A stretch of 36,227 nucleotides of DNA from a virus (Duplodnaviria; Heunggongvirae; Uroviricota; Caudoviricetes), in IMG/VR virus record IMGVR_UViG_638341087_000024. The stretch is one strand, 5' to 3'. Both the position numbers and the translations under genes were made by a program. Shown piece by piece: positions 8,951 to 13,661 of the stretch. Every line of letters starts with the position of its first letter. The first letter of the stretch is position 1. Under the pieces are notes generated by a model. It saw nothing but the letters and a program-made list of their open reading frames with translations, did no database searches and had not been told where the DNA came from.

Positions 8951-9910
8951 ATGAAAATTTGTATCGACGACGGCTCCACCAACATCAAGCTGGCATGGAC
9001 TGAGAACGGCGAACGCCGCAACGCCATCAGCCCGAACAGCTTCAAGTCGGAATGGTCTGCGCCGTTCGGTGGCACGCAGCCCGCGAACTACATGCTTGAT
9101 GGCGTGCGCTATGGTTTTGATCCGGTCAGCGATCGCTTTGTCCAGACGACCGACACGCAATACCAGTACAGTGATGTGAATGTCATTGCCATTCATCACG
9201 CACTGGTCAAATCAGGCATCACGCCACAGGAGGTGGATGTGGTTGTCACCCTGCCACTGAGCGAGTATTTCGACACAAACGCACAGCCGGACATGGCCAA
9301 CATCAACCGCAAAAAAGCGAACGTCATGCGCCCGGTGGAGTACCAGAACGGCGAAGCATTCACTATCCGTAACGTACGGGTTATGCCTGAATCCATTCCG
9401 GCTGGCTTTAAGGCACTGGCTGACATGAGTCCGTTTGAATCCCTGCTGATTGTGGATTTGGGCGGAACCACGCTGGATGTGGCAAAGGTTCAGGGGCAAC
9501 TGGCAGGTATCAGCCAGGTGTTTTGCGATCCACACGTAGGCGTTTCTCTGATGGCCGATGCCGTACTGTCGGTGATGGCCACTAACGGTATGCGCACCAG
9601 TCACCACATCGCCAATACCATTATCGAACATCGCCATGATGAAGCCTGGCTGCGCCAGCACATCCACAATGACGCGCATTACGACAGCCTGATGGCGGTT
9701 ATTCGTGAAAAGGAAGAAACACTGAAACAACGAGTGATCCGCGCGCTGGCGGGTTTTTCGGGTTACGGGCGGGTGATGGTTGTCGGTGGAGGGGCGGAGA
9801 TTGTGGCACCCGCTATCCGCGAAGCCTGCGGAGTTAATGCGACTTTCATCGCGGACGGGGTGCCACAGTTTGCTCTGGTCAATGGTTTGTACGCAATGGA
9901 CAAGGAGTAA
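8951..9910 (+). CDS. parM: ParM/StbA actin-like segregation ATPase (type II partition)
   Basis: N-terminus MKICIDDGSTNIKLAW... and internal motifs (YSDVNVIAIHHAL, VMPESIPAGF, LIVDLGGTTLDV, VMVVGGGAE, LVNGLYAM) closely track plasmid R1 ParM. Confidence 0.9.
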   Translation: MKICIDDGSTNIKLAWTENGERRNAISPNSFKSEWSAPFGGTQPANYMLDGVRYGFDPVSDRFVQTTDTQYQYSDVNVIAIHHALVKSGITPQEVDVVVTLPLSEYFDTNAQPDMANINRKKANVMRPVEYQNGEAFTIRNVRVMPESIPAGFKALADMSPFESLLIVDLGGTTLDVAKVQGQLAGISQVFCDPHVGVSLMADAVLSVMATNGMRTSHHIANTIIEHRHDEAWLRQHIHNDAHYDSLMAVIREKEETLKQRVIRALAGFSGYGRVMVVGGGAEIVAPAIREACGVNATFIADGVPQFALVNGLYAMDKE

Positions 9911-9914
9911 ACCA

Positions 9915-10226
9915 ATGACGACACCAACCAGACGGATAAGTTTCTATCTGAAGCCCGCCGCCGTCAAGAACGAAGGCGAAGCATGCGCCTGGCTGGACAG
10001 CCTTACACCAGAAGCCCGCAAAAGCGGCCAACGCGTGGCTTTTCTGGCCGGGCTGGCACTTCTGAAAATGAATCCGGCAGAGGCTTACCGACTGGCTGCA
10101 TGGGCTGACGATGAAGCGTTATCAGTGACACAAACCAGGGCAGAACGCCACATGTTACAGACAGCCCCCACCGCACAGATAACCAGTCAGATGGCCGGAA
10201 ATATCCGGGCGTTATTTCCCGATTAG
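9915..10226 (+). CDS. parR: ParR-like centromere-binding adaptor (ribbon-helix-helix)
   Basis: 103 aa from ATG 9915; RRISFYLKP...LDSL...AFLAGLALL and C-terminal NIRALFP parallel R1 ParR; directly follows parM. Confidence 0.75.
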   Translation: MTTPTRRISFYLKPAAVKNEGEACAWLDSLTPEARKSGQRVAFLAGLALLKMNPAEAYRLAAWADDEALSVTQTRAERHMLQTAPTAQITSQMAGNIRALFPD

Positions 10227-10295
10227 AACTTTGCACGGGAGGTTTCCAGTTCTGAAAACAATCAACAAATAAGGAGTCGAACGTCAAAGATATAA

Positions 10296-10325
10296 GGCCG
10301 CCTAGCTGGCGGTCTTGTGTCTTAA
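10296..10325 (+). terminator. Candidate intrinsic terminator after parMR
   Basis: GGCCGCC-TAGCT-GGCGGTC hairpin (one G-U pair) followed by T-rich TCTTGTGTCTT. Confidence 0.45.
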
Positions 10326-10356
10326 AATATGTTTATCTTAATGAGGACTATTATTT

Positions 10357-10875
10357 TTATAAAAAATAATCATCATGAGAGGAAACATGAAAATTATAAT
10401 CTCTCAATTGGGGGATAATCCCTCTACTCCAAAGCAACGTTTTATTTAGTCCAAGTCCATCTAATTTCATCATCCTGTTGCGCAGCGCAATGAATTCATT
10501 CTTGAAGTTATCTGCAGAGATGATCTTTGGGCAAAAACAAGAATACAACTTTCTATTACTTACACCACAAGCATTGGCAAGCTCATCCTCAAAATTGCTT
10601 GTTTGTTGAAATAGGTGGATTGTGTGTTTTTTCGCCTTTAATAGATTGAGATTATTCTTAAATCTATCAAGATTCTCAATCCTATCCGTATCAAAAACCA
10701 CTATGATTTCGCTATTTTCGGTTAATGCTGGCATGTATTTATTTATATTAACATTCCATAAATTAGCAATTACTATTTTCTTAATAGGATAGCCTAGCAA
10801 TGTTTTGAAATCCTGAAACAATGCTTTTTCCGTATCTCCCTCAACAAGAATAATAGCAAATTTCTTAACTGCCAT
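10357..10875 (-). CDS. Small TOPRIM-like putative nuclease (OLD / DUF4276 / DUF4435-like), distal gene of a two-gene cassette
   Basis: 172 aa from ATG 10873-10875 (the track's TTG-initiated ORF extends to 10881). N-terminal strand with conserved acidic residue (FAIILVEGDTEKALF) and a downstream DxD (IIVVFDTDRIE) match the TOPRIM core signature. Markedly AT-rich; starts 2 nt after the ATPase stop. Confidence 0.6.
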   Translation of the reverse strand: MAVKKFAIILVEGDTEKALFQDFKTLLGYPIKKIVIANLWNVNINKYMPALTENSEIIVVFDTDRIENLDRFKNNLNLLKAKKHTIHLFQQTSNFEDELANACGVSNRKLYSCFCPKIISADNFKNEFIALRNRMMKLDGLGLNKTLLWSRGIIPQLRDYNFHVSSHDDYFL

Positions 10876-10877
10876 AA

Positions 10878-12077
10878 TCAATCCTCAAATAGCATCTCTT
10901 CGATTAATGAAACGTCAGGTATTGTTGCAAAACAGTCATTTTTTACTTTATTTAAAAGATTGCGATCATTCTTTTTATGATGTGTGGTAGCTTCAACAAA
11001 AGTGGTTACACCATCTACTTTTTTAGTAAAAGTATATGAATGCGTAGGCAGATCTAAGCTCAAGATATCATAATTATGTGTGGTGTATATAAATTGACCA
11101 TATCTGCAAAGCTTAGATATAATCAGCGTGACCATCATTTTTTCTAATTCAGTATGAGTGAAGGCCATTTTCTCATCCAAAAAGTACACCCCACTGCAAG
11201 GGAAATTGAACTCTCGCTCTTCTATTTTATCTTCAAGCACTCCTGACAGGAGATGGGATATTTTTACTGCCTCATAAGTACCACGAGACAGTCTATCTTT
11301 ATTTGTTATATCACCTTCCATATCAATAATAACTCTATCTCCATTATTGAAGACTACTGAATAACCCTGCAAATCCTCCTTTCCCTCATCATCTTTAAGA
11401 GTGAGTCCTGAGACAGATTTAACAGTATTGTCAAAGGTTTTTAATATGCTATTAAGCACATTCTTCTTAATTCGTGATATTTTATCCGTGTTCTCTTGGT
11501 TTTCAGATAGAATGAAATGCCAACCAAGAACAAAGTCCAAACCCTCTAAATATTGGGAAAATTCTTTTGAGTTAGCGTTTTCGGTTGAAAAAAATCTATT
11601 TTGACCATTTAATTCAAACTTTTGCGCATCCCACACAGCATCCAGTCTTTTGGTCGTCTTTGCGCATGATTCCGAGCTTCTTAAATCAACAGATGCCATT
11701 GCAATTTTTTCTACAACAACAGACTCATCCATAGCCCTAAGCCAGACACCTGCCCTAAACAAACATTTTAAATGACTCTGGAAAAAGTCAACCTCTATAT
11801 ATGCAGGTTTTCTTTTGTCAGTAATTTTTAACGGTTCTGGATTGAAAACACCACTACTGAGAAAACGCAACACAGAAAGCATCACGCGACCAAGAGATGT
11901 TTTACCAGATGCATTAGCACCAGAAACGATGCAAACCTTTTTGAAGTAGAACTTTTCAAATCCATCAATGTACTCACCTTCCAGTGAGCTGTTGATCGGG
12001 GGTCTGGAGAAGCTTAAGTCAAGGATGCTATTTTCAAAGCAAAACAGATTATCGATTCTGATTTTTGTAAAAGCCAT
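10878..12077 (-). CDS. ABC-type ATPase (AAA_15/AAA_21-like, SMC/OLD-family fold), proximal gene of a two-gene cassette
   Basis: Walker A GANASGKTS (nt about 11895-11921), signature-like LSRGTYEAV, Walker B VYFLDE, H-loop IYTTHNYD. Shine-Dalgarno AAGGTGG 7 nt upstream of ATG 12075-12077. AT-rich relative to flanking phage genes. Confidence 0.8.
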   Translation of the reverse strand: MAFTKIRIDNLFCFENSILDLSFSRPPINSSLEGEYIDGFEKFYFKKVCIVSGANASGKTSLGRVMLSVLRFLSSGVFNPEPLKITDKRKPAYIEVDFFQSHLKCLFRAGVWLRAMDESVVVEKIAMASVDLRSSESCAKTTKRLDAVWDAQKFELNGQNRFFSTENANSKEFSQYLEGLDFVLGWHFILSENQENTDKISRIKKNVLNSILKTFDNTVKSVSGLTLKDDEGKEDLQGYSVVFNNGDRVIIDMEGDITNKDRLSRGTYEAVKISHLLSGVLEDKIEEREFNFPCSGVYFLDEKMAFTHTELEKMMVTLIISKLCRYGQFIYTTHNYDILSLDLPTHSYTFTKKVDGVTTFVEATTHHKKNDRNLLNKVKNDCFATIPDVSLIEEMLFED

Positions 12078-12163
12078 TTTGTTCCACCTTTTGGAAGTAA
12101 ATATTGCTACCTGTTGAGTTTACATGTAATGAGCTGGTAAGCAATACAGGGATTCGATTTAGC

Positions 12164-12189
12164 GCACAATAGTGCACAAATTTGCACAA
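12164..12189. promoter_or_regulatory. Three helically phased GCACAA hexamers upstream of the ATPase gene
   Basis: GCACAA at 12164, 12174 and 12184 (exact 10-bp periodicity) within GCGCACAATAGTGCACAAATTTGCACAA, about 90-110 bp upstream of the cassette start codon. Candidate regulator site. Confidence 0.35.
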
Positions 12190-12259
12190 TTTTTTTGAAC
12201 GAATTTTTGCCCTTCTGGCCCGCGTGGCGGCTGGATCCGTCAGGGATCCGTGCGTGCAC

Positions 12260-12284
12260 AAAAAAACGCGCTTTTTCTGCGCGC
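12260..12284 (-). terminator. Intrinsic terminator insulating the ATPase/TOPRIM cassette from leftward read-through
   Basis: Read on the minus strand: GCGCGC-AGAAAAA-GCGCG hairpin followed by T7; located between the portal gene end and the cassette promoter region. Confidence 0.5.
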
Positions 12285-12445
12285 AGGTGACGGGGGAACA
12301 GCCCGCGTTTCAGGGGGTAAATAGCATTCCCTGAACGATGTCGCAGAGACACAACAGAATGGCTGTATTTCTCACGCTGAGCATGAAAAATACGTGAGGG
12401 ATTCTGATTTGATGGGGTGAAAGGTAAGGCCGTCAAAATCGCACT

Positions 12446-12464
12446 GAGGCGGCGAAGAACATGC
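12446..12464. other. Candidate cos-like site (tentative)
   Basis: GAGGCGGCGAAGAACATGC loosely resembles the P2/186 19-nt cohesive end (GGCGAGGCGGGGAAAGCAC as recalled) and lies where cos is expected, between the accessory locus and Q. The match is imperfect. Confidence 0.2.
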
Positions 12465-12561
12465 AGTCAACGCGGTGGGATTGCGTAAGAGTCTGACCGC
12501 CGATGATGGCAATAAGCAGAAAAGCGTCGTGAAATTATCTGATTGATACAGGAGCTGGAGA

Positions 12562-12590
12562 GCCGGGGCATAAATTTTTTATGCCCCGGC
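12562..12590. repeat. Perfect 13-bp inverted repeat hairpin downstream of the portal gene
   Basis: GCCGGGGCATAAA-TTT-TTTATGCCCCGGC; no flanking U-tract, so not a classical intrinsic terminator. Possible RNA stability element or packaging-region structure. Confidence 0.5.
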
Positions 12591-12614
12591 GAAGCAGCAG
12601 ACAAGCGAAGCGCG

Positions 12615-13661
12615 TCAGGATGTGGGCTGGGTATCTAACAGTGCGTAAGGGTTAAAGCGGATCACCTCTTCGCCAAGCCAGTCATTGATGTGCTTCATGG
12701 CCTCCATGACGGGCATCAGCTCGTTAATTGCGTAAACCCGCGCGGCCTTCTCCACATCACCAAACGCACTTTTTTCACCCGGCATCGCCCCCATCAGTTG
12801 CGGCGGAACGCGGTGCGCAGCCAGCACATCATCACGGGATGCCGCCTTAACATTCATGAACTCATCCTTTGCGGTGATCTGCTGGAACGGCAAAATTTGC
12901 ACCCCCTCTTTACCCCCGTTGGGCGCATGAATGAGCACGTTTTTAAACGCACCGCCACCACGTGCACCCTGTAGCGTTTCTTTCAGGGAGTCCATGCTTT
13001 CGCGGTTTACCTGCGCTGCACCGATGTAGATGATGCACCCGGCGTGGGATCCGTTGTCGTAATACAGTTTTCTGAACATGTCCGCCGAATGAGACAGGCT
13101 GGCCGAGAGTAATGCGCCGAGATATTCCGGCATGCCGTAGATTTCCTGGTTAATGTCAGGATTCATCAGGTGGCACACTTTGCCAGGGCGAAACTGGAAC
13201 GCATCCTTGCCATCCTGCACATACCACCATGATTCAAGATCGCTACCGCGTCGCATGTATTTCGCCAGGGCGTGCCGTAATTTAAGCGGTTCGCCGAGCA
13301 TATTGCTTCGAAGCTCAAGGAATGCGTTACCGAACACAAACCAGTCCAGCGCCAGCGCCGAGAAATCCTGCCGGGAAAGCAGCGGGTGCGGGATGTAGCA
13401 ACCGAGTAATACATTGCGCTTAAAGTAAAGCGCAGACTGATGCCAGGACGTTTGCCGGGCAGCTCTTGCCAGACCGTACCAGTCCACCGGGGTTTCATAC
13501 CACCGCCCGTTATCAGCACAGTACATATTGTCCAGCAGGTCATGCCCGGTCAGGCGATAAGGACCATCAAATGTGAATGCACTGAGCGACGATTCTTTCC
13601 TGAGCGCATCAGCGAGATCAATGCGTGAACTCATGCGCACTTTTTTATTTTTTCTGCTCAT
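12615..13661 (-). CDS. Q: Portal protein (P2 gpQ)
   Basis: 348 aa; extensive colinearity with P2 Q (FTFDGP..., NGRWYE, VFGNAFLE, NPDINQEIYGMPEYLGAL, HRVPPQLMG, EVIRF). Confidence 0.92.
   Translation of the reverse strand: MSRKNKKVRMSSRIDLADALRKESSLSAFTFDGPYRLTGHDLLDNMYCADNGRWYETPVDWYGLARAARQTSWHQSALYFKRNVLLGCYIPHPLLSRQDFSALALDWFVFGNAFLELRSNMLGEPLKLRHALAKYMRRGSDLESWWYVQDGKDAFQFRPGKVCHLMNPDINQEIYGMPEYLGALLSASLSHSADMFRKLYYDNGSHAGCIIYIGAAQVNRESMDSLKETLQGARGGGAFKNVLIHAPNGGKEGVQILPFQQITAKDEFMNVKAASRDDVLAAHRVPPQLMGAMPGEKSAFGDVEKAARVYAINELMPVMEAMKHINDWLGEEVIRFNPYALLDTQPTS

What the first reader, a model, noticed from the sequence alone, without database searches (positions are those of the whole stretch)
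10357..12290. AT-rich two-gene cassette (ABC/AAA_15-21 ATPase + small TOPRIM-like protein) at the P2 tin/old accessory position: candidate split-OLD or PARIS-like anti-phage system
Seen in sequence: two translationally coupled minus-strand genes (399 aa and 172 aa, 2 nt apart), visibly more AT-rich than the flanking replication and portal genes, sitting between the partition cassette and cos/portal. The 399-aa protein has an ABC-ATPase motif set (Walker A GANASGKTS, signature-like LSRGT, Walker B VYFLDE, H-loop TTHNYD). The 172-aa protein has a TOPRIM-like signature (LVEGDTE followed by VFDTD). Established knowledge: P2 Old is a single polypeptide with an N-terminal ABC ATPase and C-terminal TOPRIM nuclease; PARIS (AriA ATPase + AriB TOPRIM) and Gabija GajA share this ATPase-TOPRIM logic; the tin/old position of P2-like phages is a known hotspot for defence cargo. 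Inference: the combined length (about 571 aa) is close to P2 Old as recalled, so this may be an OLD-like enzyme split into two subunits; the TOPRIM partner is much shorter than AriB as I remember it, so it may instead be a minimal-TOPRIM system not yet characterised. The cassette also has its own Shine-Dalgarno/promoter region, three phased GCACAA repeats and a minus-strand terminator (12260-12284) insulating it from late portal transcription, which fits lysogen-expressed defence cargo.
Basis: partly seen in the sequence, partly recalled or inferred. Interest (0 to 1): 0.85.

Follow-up and report, generated by a model that had tools for sequence, protein, structure and literature searches.

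The report
AbiL-like ATPase plus TOPRIM prophage cassette
An E. coli P2-like prophage carries, in its swappable cargo slot next to the packaging site, a two-gene pair (an ABC-type ATPase and a small TOPRIM nuclease) that looks like an untested relative of the known AbiL/RloAB/PARIS anti-phage systems, not a new kind of system.

Summary
The two minus-strand genes are real: A (10878-12077, 399 aa) and B (10357-10875, 172 aa), 2 nt apart, in a 1,941-bp AT-rich insert (10223-12163; GC 0.35 against 0.53). The insert sits between parMR and cos/portal of a P88-like (Peduoviridae) E. coli prophage, which matches the P2 tin/old slot.

A is an SMC/Rad50/PtuA-like ABC ATPase with all motifs invariant. 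Its best match is PADLOC AbiLi (1e-27). B belongs to an unannotated family of stand-alone 160-195 aa proteins that carry the OLD-type two-metal TOPRIM residue set (E12, E16, D62, D64, E96/E98, K125).

B follows A in 41 of 42 assessable loci, in prophages, islands and one type I RM operon. The pair has moved between diverged P2-like phages at this same slot.

It is not PARIS (no DUF4435 hit). It is not a recent split of P2 Old (BLAST not significant). It meets AbiL/RloB criteria only in part (the RloB score is below the curated cut-off).

The GCACAA repeats and the 12266-12284 terminator are conserved phage backbone, not cassette parts.

Most likely function: an ATPase sensor controlling a TOPRIM nuclease for abortive-infection defence. 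This is inferred and untested. I rate it a new member of a known kind, of moderate interest.

The parts
10223..12163 (-). Cargo insert (1,941 bp, GC 0.354) in the variable slot between the ParR-like gene and cos/portal of a P88-like prophage
   Evidence: blastn against phage P88: backbone identity ends at 10222 and resumes at 12164. The cassette is in 6 of 5,426 E. coli genomes, while the right flank is in 1,103. GC values.
10878..12077 (-). Gene A: 399-aa ABC ATPase (Walker A G53-T60, signature LSRGT 263-267, Walker B 297-302, H-loop TTHN 332-335), the presumed sensor/regulator
   Evidence: ORF. Pfam AAA_15 33.9 bits against a cut-off of 32.1. PADLOC AbiLi 9.6e-28, mad3 2.9e-11, AriA 5e-8. 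phrog_5836. Motif residues invariant in 30-35 homologues. AF2 pLDDT 88.5; Foldseek top hits are PtuA, SMC head and Rad50.
10357..10875 (-). Gene B: 172-aa stand-alone TOPRIM protein (E12, E16, D62, D64, N94, E96, E98, K125), the presumed nuclease effector
   Evidence: ORF. Pfam OLD-like_TOPRIM 24.2 bits against a cut-off of 23.2; RloB 17.7 bits, below its cut-off of 31.5. PADLOC hits to the GajA TOPRIM region, AbiLii and mad4. phrog_10204. Invariant residues in 67 diverse members. hhalign places the profile on P2 Old 393-558. AF2 pLDDT 86 with E12 after beta1 and DxD at the end of beta3. RefSeq name: 'TOPRIM nucleotidyl transferase/hydrolase domain-containing protein'.
10876..10886 (-). A/B junction: GAGGA (10886-10882), TGA stop of A (10880-10878), 2-nt gap, then the ATG of B at 10875; probable translational coupling
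   Evidence: Sequence read directly.
12084..12088 (-). Shine-Dalgarno-like GGTGG, 6 nt upstream of the ATG of gene A
   Evidence: Sequence read directly.
10298..10312 (-). GC-rich hairpin 45 nt downstream of the stop of B, inside the cargo; candidate terminator (weak T-tail), possibly bidirectional with parMR
   Evidence: Terminator scan. RNA fold -12.7 kcal/mol, z = -3.15.

Best explanation
This is a horizontally mobile two-gene cargo module of a P88-like (P2-family) prophage. It most likely acts as a lysogen-expressed anti-phage (abortive infection) system of the 'ABC ATPase plus separate small TOPRIM nuclease' kind, and its closest named relative is AbiL/RloAB.

Shown here:
- A is an SMC/Rad50/PtuA-like ABC ATPase with a complete, invariant nucleotide-binding motif set.
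- B is a stand-alone TOPRIM protein that carries the full OLD-type two-metal catalytic residue set.
- The two genes are nearly always adjacent, co-oriented and co-diverging.
- The pair occupies a cargo hotspot and has been exchanged between diverged P2-like phages.

Inferred by analogy with PARIS and P2 Old:
- A dimerises around ATP and holds B inactive.
- A phage-derived trigger (a protein or an aberrant nucleic-acid structure) changes the state of A and frees or activates B.
- B then cuts host tRNA (as AriB and Old do) or DNA. This arrests growth and aborts the infection.
For: - Gene structure and coupling.
- Family assignments: Pfam AAA_15 and OLD-like_TOPRIM above their cut-offs. PADLOC AbiLi 9.6e-28 for A. 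AbiLii hit by all 11 B-family members tested, with E values around 2e-5 to 7e-5.
- A fold: PtuA, SMC and Rad50 at E about 1e-10.
- B catalytic set: E12, G13, D62, D64 and E96 are invariant, and E16, N94, E98 and K125 are at least 90% conserved, in 67 members at 28% mean identity. This mirrors BpOLD E400, E404, D455, D457, T506, E508 and K562 (PMC6755086).
- Co-occurrence: B follows A in 41 of 42 assessable loci. Identities to the window proteins co-vary, rho = 0.96.
- Hotspot: 6 against 1,103 E. coli genomes. Sister prophages carry other cargo in the slot: AAA ATPase plus S8 peptidase, and HTH plus PIN.
- Transfer: cassette homologues 84-88% identical sit in phages whose portal is only 48-69% identical.
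- The geometry is the same as P2 old-tin.
- Other contexts are prophage edges, an island with other AAA_15 pairs, and a type I RM operon.
- Precedent: PARIS AriB and P2 Old cleave tRNA.
Against: - No experiment exists for this family. No paper mentions the two RefSeq proteins.
- The TOPRIM assignment rests on marginal profile scores: 24.2 bits against a cut-off of 23.2. Only 13 of 67 family members hit any TOPRIM Pfam family at E <= 0.01.
- Foldseek found no significant PDB match for B.
- The best PDB sequence hit, the Aquifex RNase M5 homologue 1t6t, has only E = 0.11.
- No promoter was identified, so expression in the lysogen is assumed.
- The complex, the trigger and the substrate are entirely inferred.
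Confidence: 0.68

Rival explanations
1. It is a P2 Old (class 1 OLD) orthologue that was recently split into two polypeptides, and it works as Old does.
For: The combined length is 571 aa against 586 aa for Old. The split point is co-linear with the ATPase/TOPRIM boundary of Old: the B profile aligns to Old 393-558. The slot and orientation match those of old.
Against: BLASTP of A and of B against P2 Old is not significant (E = 0.64 and 1.5). hhalign gives a probability of only 26%. The best 150 of 342 B-family representatives are all short proteins of at most 199 aa, with no fused forms among them, so the split is ancient and stable. A matches AbiLi far better than any OLD or GajA ATPase profile.
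Confidence: 0.04
2. It is a PARIS (AriA/AriB) system that senses anti-restriction proteins such as Ocr.
For: It has the same two-gene ATPase plus TOPRIM logic. There is a weak AriA hit (5e-8). One family member is embedded in a type I RM operon (L004), which fits an anti-anti-restriction role.
Against: PARIS is defined by ATPase plus DUF4435 (PMC9122126). B has no DUF4435 or AriB hit even at E <= 1. B is 172 aa, whereas AriB is a 35 kDa protein. The A model shows no long coiled-coil insert, and AriA is not among the top 50 Foldseek hits. Only 1 of about 50 loci is RM-embedded.
Confidence: 0.05
3. It is chiefly a toxin-antitoxin or addiction module that stabilises the prophage (it lies next to the ParM/ParR partition genes), with no anti-phage role of its own.
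For: It is adjacent to parMR. PARIS behaves as a TA pair (PMC10802264). The pair is also found on a small Acinetobacter plasmid.
Against: Most sister prophages keep parMR without this cassette. The pair also sits in chromosomal islands and in an RM operon with no partition genes. TA-like behaviour and defence are not mutually exclusive.
Confidence: 0.12
4. It serves the phage's own DNA metabolism (replication, recombination or packaging) and not defence.
For: TOPRIM and ABC ATPase domains occur in replication and repair proteins. It lies next to the replication genes and cos.
Against: It is present in only 6 of roughly 1,100 E. coli genomes that carry this backbone, so it is dispensable. Its AT-rich foreign composition differs from the backbone. 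It occurs outside phages. Only 2 of 50,697 phage records carry A.
Confidence: 0.04

Closest known systems
AbiL (AbiLi + AbiLii, Lactococcus) and the RloA/RloB pairs of Campylobacter type I RM loci
   Same: Both are two-gene operons with an ABC (AAA_15/21) ATPase first and a small stand-alone TOPRIM protein second. The best PADLOC hit of A is AbiLi (95 bits, 9.6e-28). All B-family members tested touch AbiLii, and some touch Pfam RloB. One member lies between hsdR and hsdM, as RloAB does. The mechanism of AbiL/RloAB is itself unknown.
   Different: B scores below the RloB curated cut-off (17.7 against 31.5 bits). It matches AbiLii only weakly (E = 7e-5, reported over profile positions 29-53 of 170). 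tblastn with A finds no Lactococcus plasmid, so the relation is visible only at profile level. None of the B-family members listed carries a precomputed Pfam domain.
PARIS (AriA + AriB; class 4 OLD)
   Same: It has a split ABC ATPase and TOPRIM nuclease, and is prophage- or satellite-borne hotspot cargo. It is the likely template for a 'sensor ATPase restrains nuclease' mechanism, with tRNA cleavage as the output.
   Different: There is no DUF4435. B is about half the size of AriB. The A model has no long coiled-coil insert. AriA profile matches are weak.
P2 Old (class 1 OLD nuclease)
   Same: It occupies the same phage slot and orientation next to cos. The domain order is the same, with co-linear lengths. 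B has the OLD-type catalytic residue pattern, and Pfam OLD-like_TOPRIM scores just above its cut-off.
   Different: Here there are two polypeptides instead of one. There is no significant pairwise similarity. The ATPase resembles PtuA, SMC and Rad50 most closely in fold search.
MADS3-4 (mad3/mad4 pair of the MADS system)
   Same: It is an ATPase plus small TOPRIM pair. mad3 scores 2.9e-11 for A. mad4 scores 2.3e-4 for B, covering profile positions 1-91 of 110. The pair is listed with AbiL as an ABC ATPase plus TOPRIM system.
   Different: No other MADS genes flank the cassette, and the scores are lower than for AbiLi.

Membership tests
AbiL / RloAB-type two-gene system | Operon of an ABC (AAA_15/21) ATPase followed by a small partner gene | tested here: met
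   A then B, 2 nt apart. AAA_15 scores above its cut-off. AbiLi 9.6e-28. The pair is conserved in 41 of 42 loci.
AbiL / RloAB-type two-gene system | The partner belongs to the RloB/AbiLii TOPRIM family (Pfam PF13707; PADLOC AbiLii) | tested here: inconclusive
   RloB scores 17.7 bits against a cut-off of 31.5, so it is not met at the curated threshold. Only 5 of 67 family members reach E <= 0.01. AbiLii is hit by 11 of 11 members tested, but weakly (2e-5 to 7e-5) and over a short profile stretch. One UniRef entry names a member 'RloB domain-containing'.
AbiL / RloAB-type two-gene system | Abortive-infection phenotype that needs both genes | not testable with these tools
   This needs cloning and phage challenge.
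PARIS (AriAB) | AriB is a DUF4435 (PF14491) protein (detection rule of PMC9122126) | tested here: not met
   B has no DUF4435 or AriB hit at E <= 1 in Pfam or PADLOC. None of the 67 family members hits it.
PARIS (AriAB) | AriA is an AAA_15/21 ATPase with coiled-coil inserts that form a hexamer | tested here: inconclusive
   AAA_15 is met. AriA profiles score only 5e-8 and 8e-4. The predicted secondary structure has no long coiled coil. The oligomeric state was not testable.
OLD family nuclease, class 1 (P2 Old) | [quoted passage not shown] | tested here: not met
   There are two separate ORFs. The best 150 B-family representatives are all 85-199 aa.
OLD family nuclease, class 1 (P2 Old) | OLD-type TOPRIM with a two-metal acidic set plus a lysine | tested here: met
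   PF20469 scores 24.2 bits against a cut-off of 23.2. E12, E16, D62, D64, E96 and K125 are conserved, matching the BpOLD residues. The profile aligns to Old 393-558. The geometry in the model was not measured.
Gabija (class 2 OLD) | GajA is accompanied by a GajB UvrD-like helicase | tested here: not met
   The cargo holds only A and B.
Septu (PtuAB) | PtuA ATPase with a PtuB HNH nuclease | tested here: not met
   A resembles PtuA in fold. But the partner B has TOPRIM motifs, not HNH, and A has no PtuA hit in PADLOC.
P2-like phage defence hotspot cargo (tin/old slot) | A variable locus between the replication gene region and cos/portal, holding unrelated cargo in related phages | tested here: met
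   The hotspot concept is from PMC9122126.

The most novel reading that the evidence does not exclude
The A/B family is a distinct clade of split ATPase/TOPRIM immune systems that no current Pfam family covers (466 B clusters at 90% identity; 342 representatives of 50%-identity clusters). It would have a compact ATPase without a coiled coil and a minimal 170-aa nuclease. Its trigger and target would differ from those of PARIS and Old, for instance a sensor of anti-restriction or of replication intermediates, given the RM-embedded member.
Probability: 0.3. Interest if true: 0.6.

Novelty: new member of a known kind. Interest (0 to 1): 0.4.

Why it matters
ABC-ATPase plus TOPRIM pairs are among the most widespread defence architectures, yet only PARIS, Gabija and (recently) Old have known mechanisms. 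AbiL, RloAB and MADS3-4 are explicitly flagged as unexplained.

This cassette is a compact E. coli representative (571 aa in total) sitting in a tractable P2-like prophage. It could serve as an experimental model for that unexplained branch.

It also gives a clean example of one defence module being exchanged between diverged P2-like phages at the same hotspot.

It does not open a new category.

Tried and rejected
- Foldseek of the B model against the PDB gave nothing significant (best E = 0.016, generic alpha/beta folds).
- Sequence and profile searches of A and B against PDB sequences gave only Walker-A-level hits for A and the RNase M5 homologue 1t6t at E = 0.11 for B.
- NCBIfam gave nothing meaningful.
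- tblastn of B against phages found no match. A occurs in only 2 phage records and 1 plasmid, so a bona fide lactococcal AbiL could not be recovered for direct comparison.
- Rfam found no RNA in 9900-12700.
- The repeat search found no boundary repeats or att-like sites.
- The promoter scan found no consensus site upstream of A.
- A literature search for the RefSeq accessions and PHROG ids found nothing.
- A search for type I RM genes in all fetched loci found only L004, so I did not adopt the 'RM-linked' idea as the main explanation.
- I rejected the GCACAA repeats and the 12266-12284 terminator as cassette parts.
Full report
**What is in the sequence**

The minus strand carries two ORFs. A lies at 10878..12077 (399 aa) and B at 10357..10875 (172 aa from the ATG at 10875). 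The stop codon of A (TGA, 10880-10878) is followed by 2 nt and then the ATG of B. GAGGA lies 6 nt upstream of that ATG. GGTGG lies 6 nt upstream of the ATG of A. RefSeq annotates the same two CDS in an identical E. coli chromosome region: A as 'hypothetical protein' and B as 'TOPRIM nucleotidyl transferase/hydrolase domain-containing protein'. GC drops to 0.32-0.39 here against about 0.55 in the flanks. The cargo is 0.354 against 0.526 for the rest of the window.

**Where it sits**

The window is a P88-like (Xuanwuvirus, Peduoviridae) prophage, 100% identical to E. coli strain 504838 over the tested 2,251-bp region (10200-12450). The gene order is replication endonuclease, ParM, ParR-like, the cassette, then portal and terminase on the minus strand.

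In P2 itself the order is A, orf91, tin(-), old(-), cosR, and the old-tin transcript starts near cos. The cassette therefore occupies the equivalent slot in the same orientation.

blastn against phage P88 fixes the cargo at 10223-12163, because backbone identity ends at 10222 and resumes at 12164. The right flank occurs in 1,103 of 5,426 complete E. coli genomes, and the cassette in 6. Sister prophages hold other cargo in this slot:
- an AAA ATPase plus an S8 peptidase,
- an HTH protein plus a PIN protein,
- ClpX-zinc-finger, DUF551 and ASCH genes,
- or one small ORF.

This fits the P2-like hotspot described by Rousset et al. (PMC9122126).

The three phased GCACAA copies (12164, 12174, 12184) and the hairpin plus T-run at 12284..12266 are real. 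However, they lie in the conserved backbone, which begins exactly at 12164. They are shared by phages with other cargo, so they are not cassette regulatory elements.

The terminator follows the portal operon. The repeats lie about 25 nt from a cos-like GGCCCGCGTGGCGG. P2 has three similarly phased TGCAT motifs next to cosR, so a packaging-site role is my inference.

No consensus promoter was found between 12078 and 12163. A GC-rich hairpin inside the cargo (10312..10298; -12.7 kcal/mol, z = -3.15) may terminate the cassette.

**Protein A**

- Pfam AAA_15 scores 33.9 bits against a cut-off of 32.1.
- In PADLOC the best hit is AbiLi (9.6e-28, 95 bits), followed by mad3 (2.9e-11) and AriA (5e-8).
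- It matches PHROG 5836, of unknown function.
- Across 30-35 homologues at 26-87% identity, the Walker A residues (G53, K59), the signature (S264, G266, T267), Walker B (D301, E302) and the H-loop (T332, T333, H334) are invariant.
- The AlphaFold model (pLDDT 88.5, pTM 0.88) most resembles PtuA of Septu and retron complexes, SMC heads and Rad50 (E 2e-10 to 1e-7, TM 0.36-0.45). Its insert is beta-rich and has no long coiled coil.

**Protein B**

- Pfam OLD-like_TOPRIM scores 24.2 bits against a cut-off of 23.2. RloB scores 17.7 bits, below its cut-off of 31.5. There is no DUF4435 or DUF4276 hit.
- PADLOC hits the TOPRIM part of GajA (5.9e-5), AbiLii (7e-5), the retron I-B ATPase-Toprim effector (1.6e-4) and mad4 (2.3e-4).
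- An exhaustive profile search found 342 representatives of 50%-identity clusters. The best 150 are all 85-199 aa, so none is fused to an ATPase.
- A second search found 466 clusters. All those listed are unnamed or 'hypothetical' and carry no precomputed Pfam domain. One is called RloB and one DUF4276 by their sources.
- In 67 diverse members (28% mean identity), E12, G13, D62, D64 and E96 are invariant, and E16, N38, N75, Q91, N94, E98, F124, K125 and W149 are at least 90% conserved.
- This reproduces the two-metal set of the Burkholderia OLD nuclease: E400, E404, D455, D457, T506, E508 and K562 (PMC6755086).
- In the model (pLDDT 86), E12 follows beta1 and the DxD motif ends beta3, as in TOPRIM.
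- The B profile aligns to P2 Old residues 393-558, matching VEGKTE and DCD (E = 7e-4, probability 26%).

The limits of this evidence are as follows:
- Foldseek gave no significant PDB hit.
- The best PDB sequence hit is the Aquifex RNase M5 homologue 1t6t at E = 0.11.
- Only 13 of 67 members hit OLD-like_TOPRIM on their own.

I regard TOPRIM as well supported by motif conservation and by consistent weak hits, all to TOPRIM families. It is not proven by fold search.

**The pair is a unit**

In 43 loci with an A homologue, 41 have a B-family ORF immediately downstream on the same strand. One contig ends right after A, and one has A alone. Identities of A and B to the window proteins co-vary (Spearman 0.96, not corrected for phylogeny).

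The contexts include:
- an E. coli prophage edge next to an integrase,
- a Glaesserella type I RM operon, between hsdR and hsdM, which is the RloAB layout,
- Taylorella,
- Acinetobacter phage Ab105-3phi and a gut phage, where the pair lies between portal and terminase,
- Psychrobacter and Eikenella prophages, an Oligella island with two further AAA_15 plus small-gene pairs, and a Lonepinella islet.

Cassette homologues 84-88% identical lie in the same portal-to-RepA slot of phages whose portal is only 48-69% identical. The module has therefore been exchanged between phages at this hotspot.

**Classification**

- It is not PARIS. The defining DUF4435 partner is absent.
- It is not a recent split of P2 Old. 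BLASTP is not significant and the best 150 B-family representatives include no fused forms. The architecture is nevertheless co-linear with Old.
- It is not Gabija, Septu or MADS, because it lacks GajB, has no HNH partner, and has no other mad genes.
- The closest named system is AbiL/RloAB. The ATPase criterion is clearly met. The RloB/AbiLii criterion is only weakly met.

The literature already lists AbiL, RloAB, a Nostoc pair and MADS3-4 as ABC-ATPase plus TOPRIM two-gene systems that are structurally distinct from PARIS and have unknown mechanisms (PMC11464382; PMC10802264; PMC13064643). I found no paper on this particular family.

**Mechanism**

This is inferred. A senses infection and controls B through ATP-dependent conformational change. 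Activated B cleaves tRNA, as AriB does and, according to a 2026 preprint, P2 Old does, or it cleaves DNA. Either would arrest the cell. The complex, the trigger and the substrate have not been shown.

**Verdict**

The core observation is confirmed and the general idea is supported. The specific labels (split Old, PARIS-like, new minimal-TOPRIM kind) and the regulatory attributions are not supported. I rate it a new, untested member of a known kind. Interest is moderate (0.4).

Noticed in passing
window 12164-12189 and 12215-12235: Three TTGTGC/GCACAA copies at a 10-nt period start exactly where the conserved backbone resumes. They lie about 25 nt from a cos-like GGCCCGCGTGGCGG. P2 has three similarly phased TGCAT motifs just inside cosR. 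They may be terminase or cos-binding elements of P2-family phages. The record for phage P884B11 starts at window position 12208.
   Followed up: partly
window 34635-35459 (minus strand): A second AT-rich region (GC 0.32-0.33) holds one 274-aa ORF between the gpD-like tail gene and an Ogr-like zinc-finger gene. It has no Pfam or PADLOC hit. It contains FAAHAL and GMSGG motifs that resemble those of a trypsin-like serine protease. It is probably a second cargo hotspot of the prophage.
   Followed up: partly
L055 991-7706 (Oligella urethralis chromosome): Three consecutive 'AAA_15 ATPase plus small 145-173 aa protein' pairs are interrupted by a transposase. The first pair matches PADLOC candidates PDC-M29A/B and the third is the A/B family. 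It looks like a small island of paralogous ATPase plus small-partner modules.
   Followed up: partly
L004 418-7237 (Glaesserella parasuis): An A/B family pair is inserted between hsdR and hsdM of a type I restriction-modification operon, the same layout as Campylobacter RloAB. It is the only such case among about 50 loci examined.
   Followed up: partly
L046 1163-4446 and L047 2765-4418 (sister E. coli prophages, same slot): Other cargo in the same hotspot: an AAA family ATPase plus an S8 peptidase, and an HTH protein plus a PIN-domain protein. Both look like defence or TA modules and were not analysed further.
   Followed up: no
window 8951-10226: This integrated P2-family prophage carries a plasmid-type ParM/ParR-like partition cassette, conserved in P88-like phages. 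This is unusual for an integrating phage, and its role is unclear.
   Followed up: no
L043 1934-3190 and L054 4178-4414: There are exceptions to the pair rule. One viral contig has an A homologue (418 aa, with a C-terminal extension) and no B. One Eikenella strain has B truncated to 78 aa. These are possibly decaying copies.
   Followed up: no
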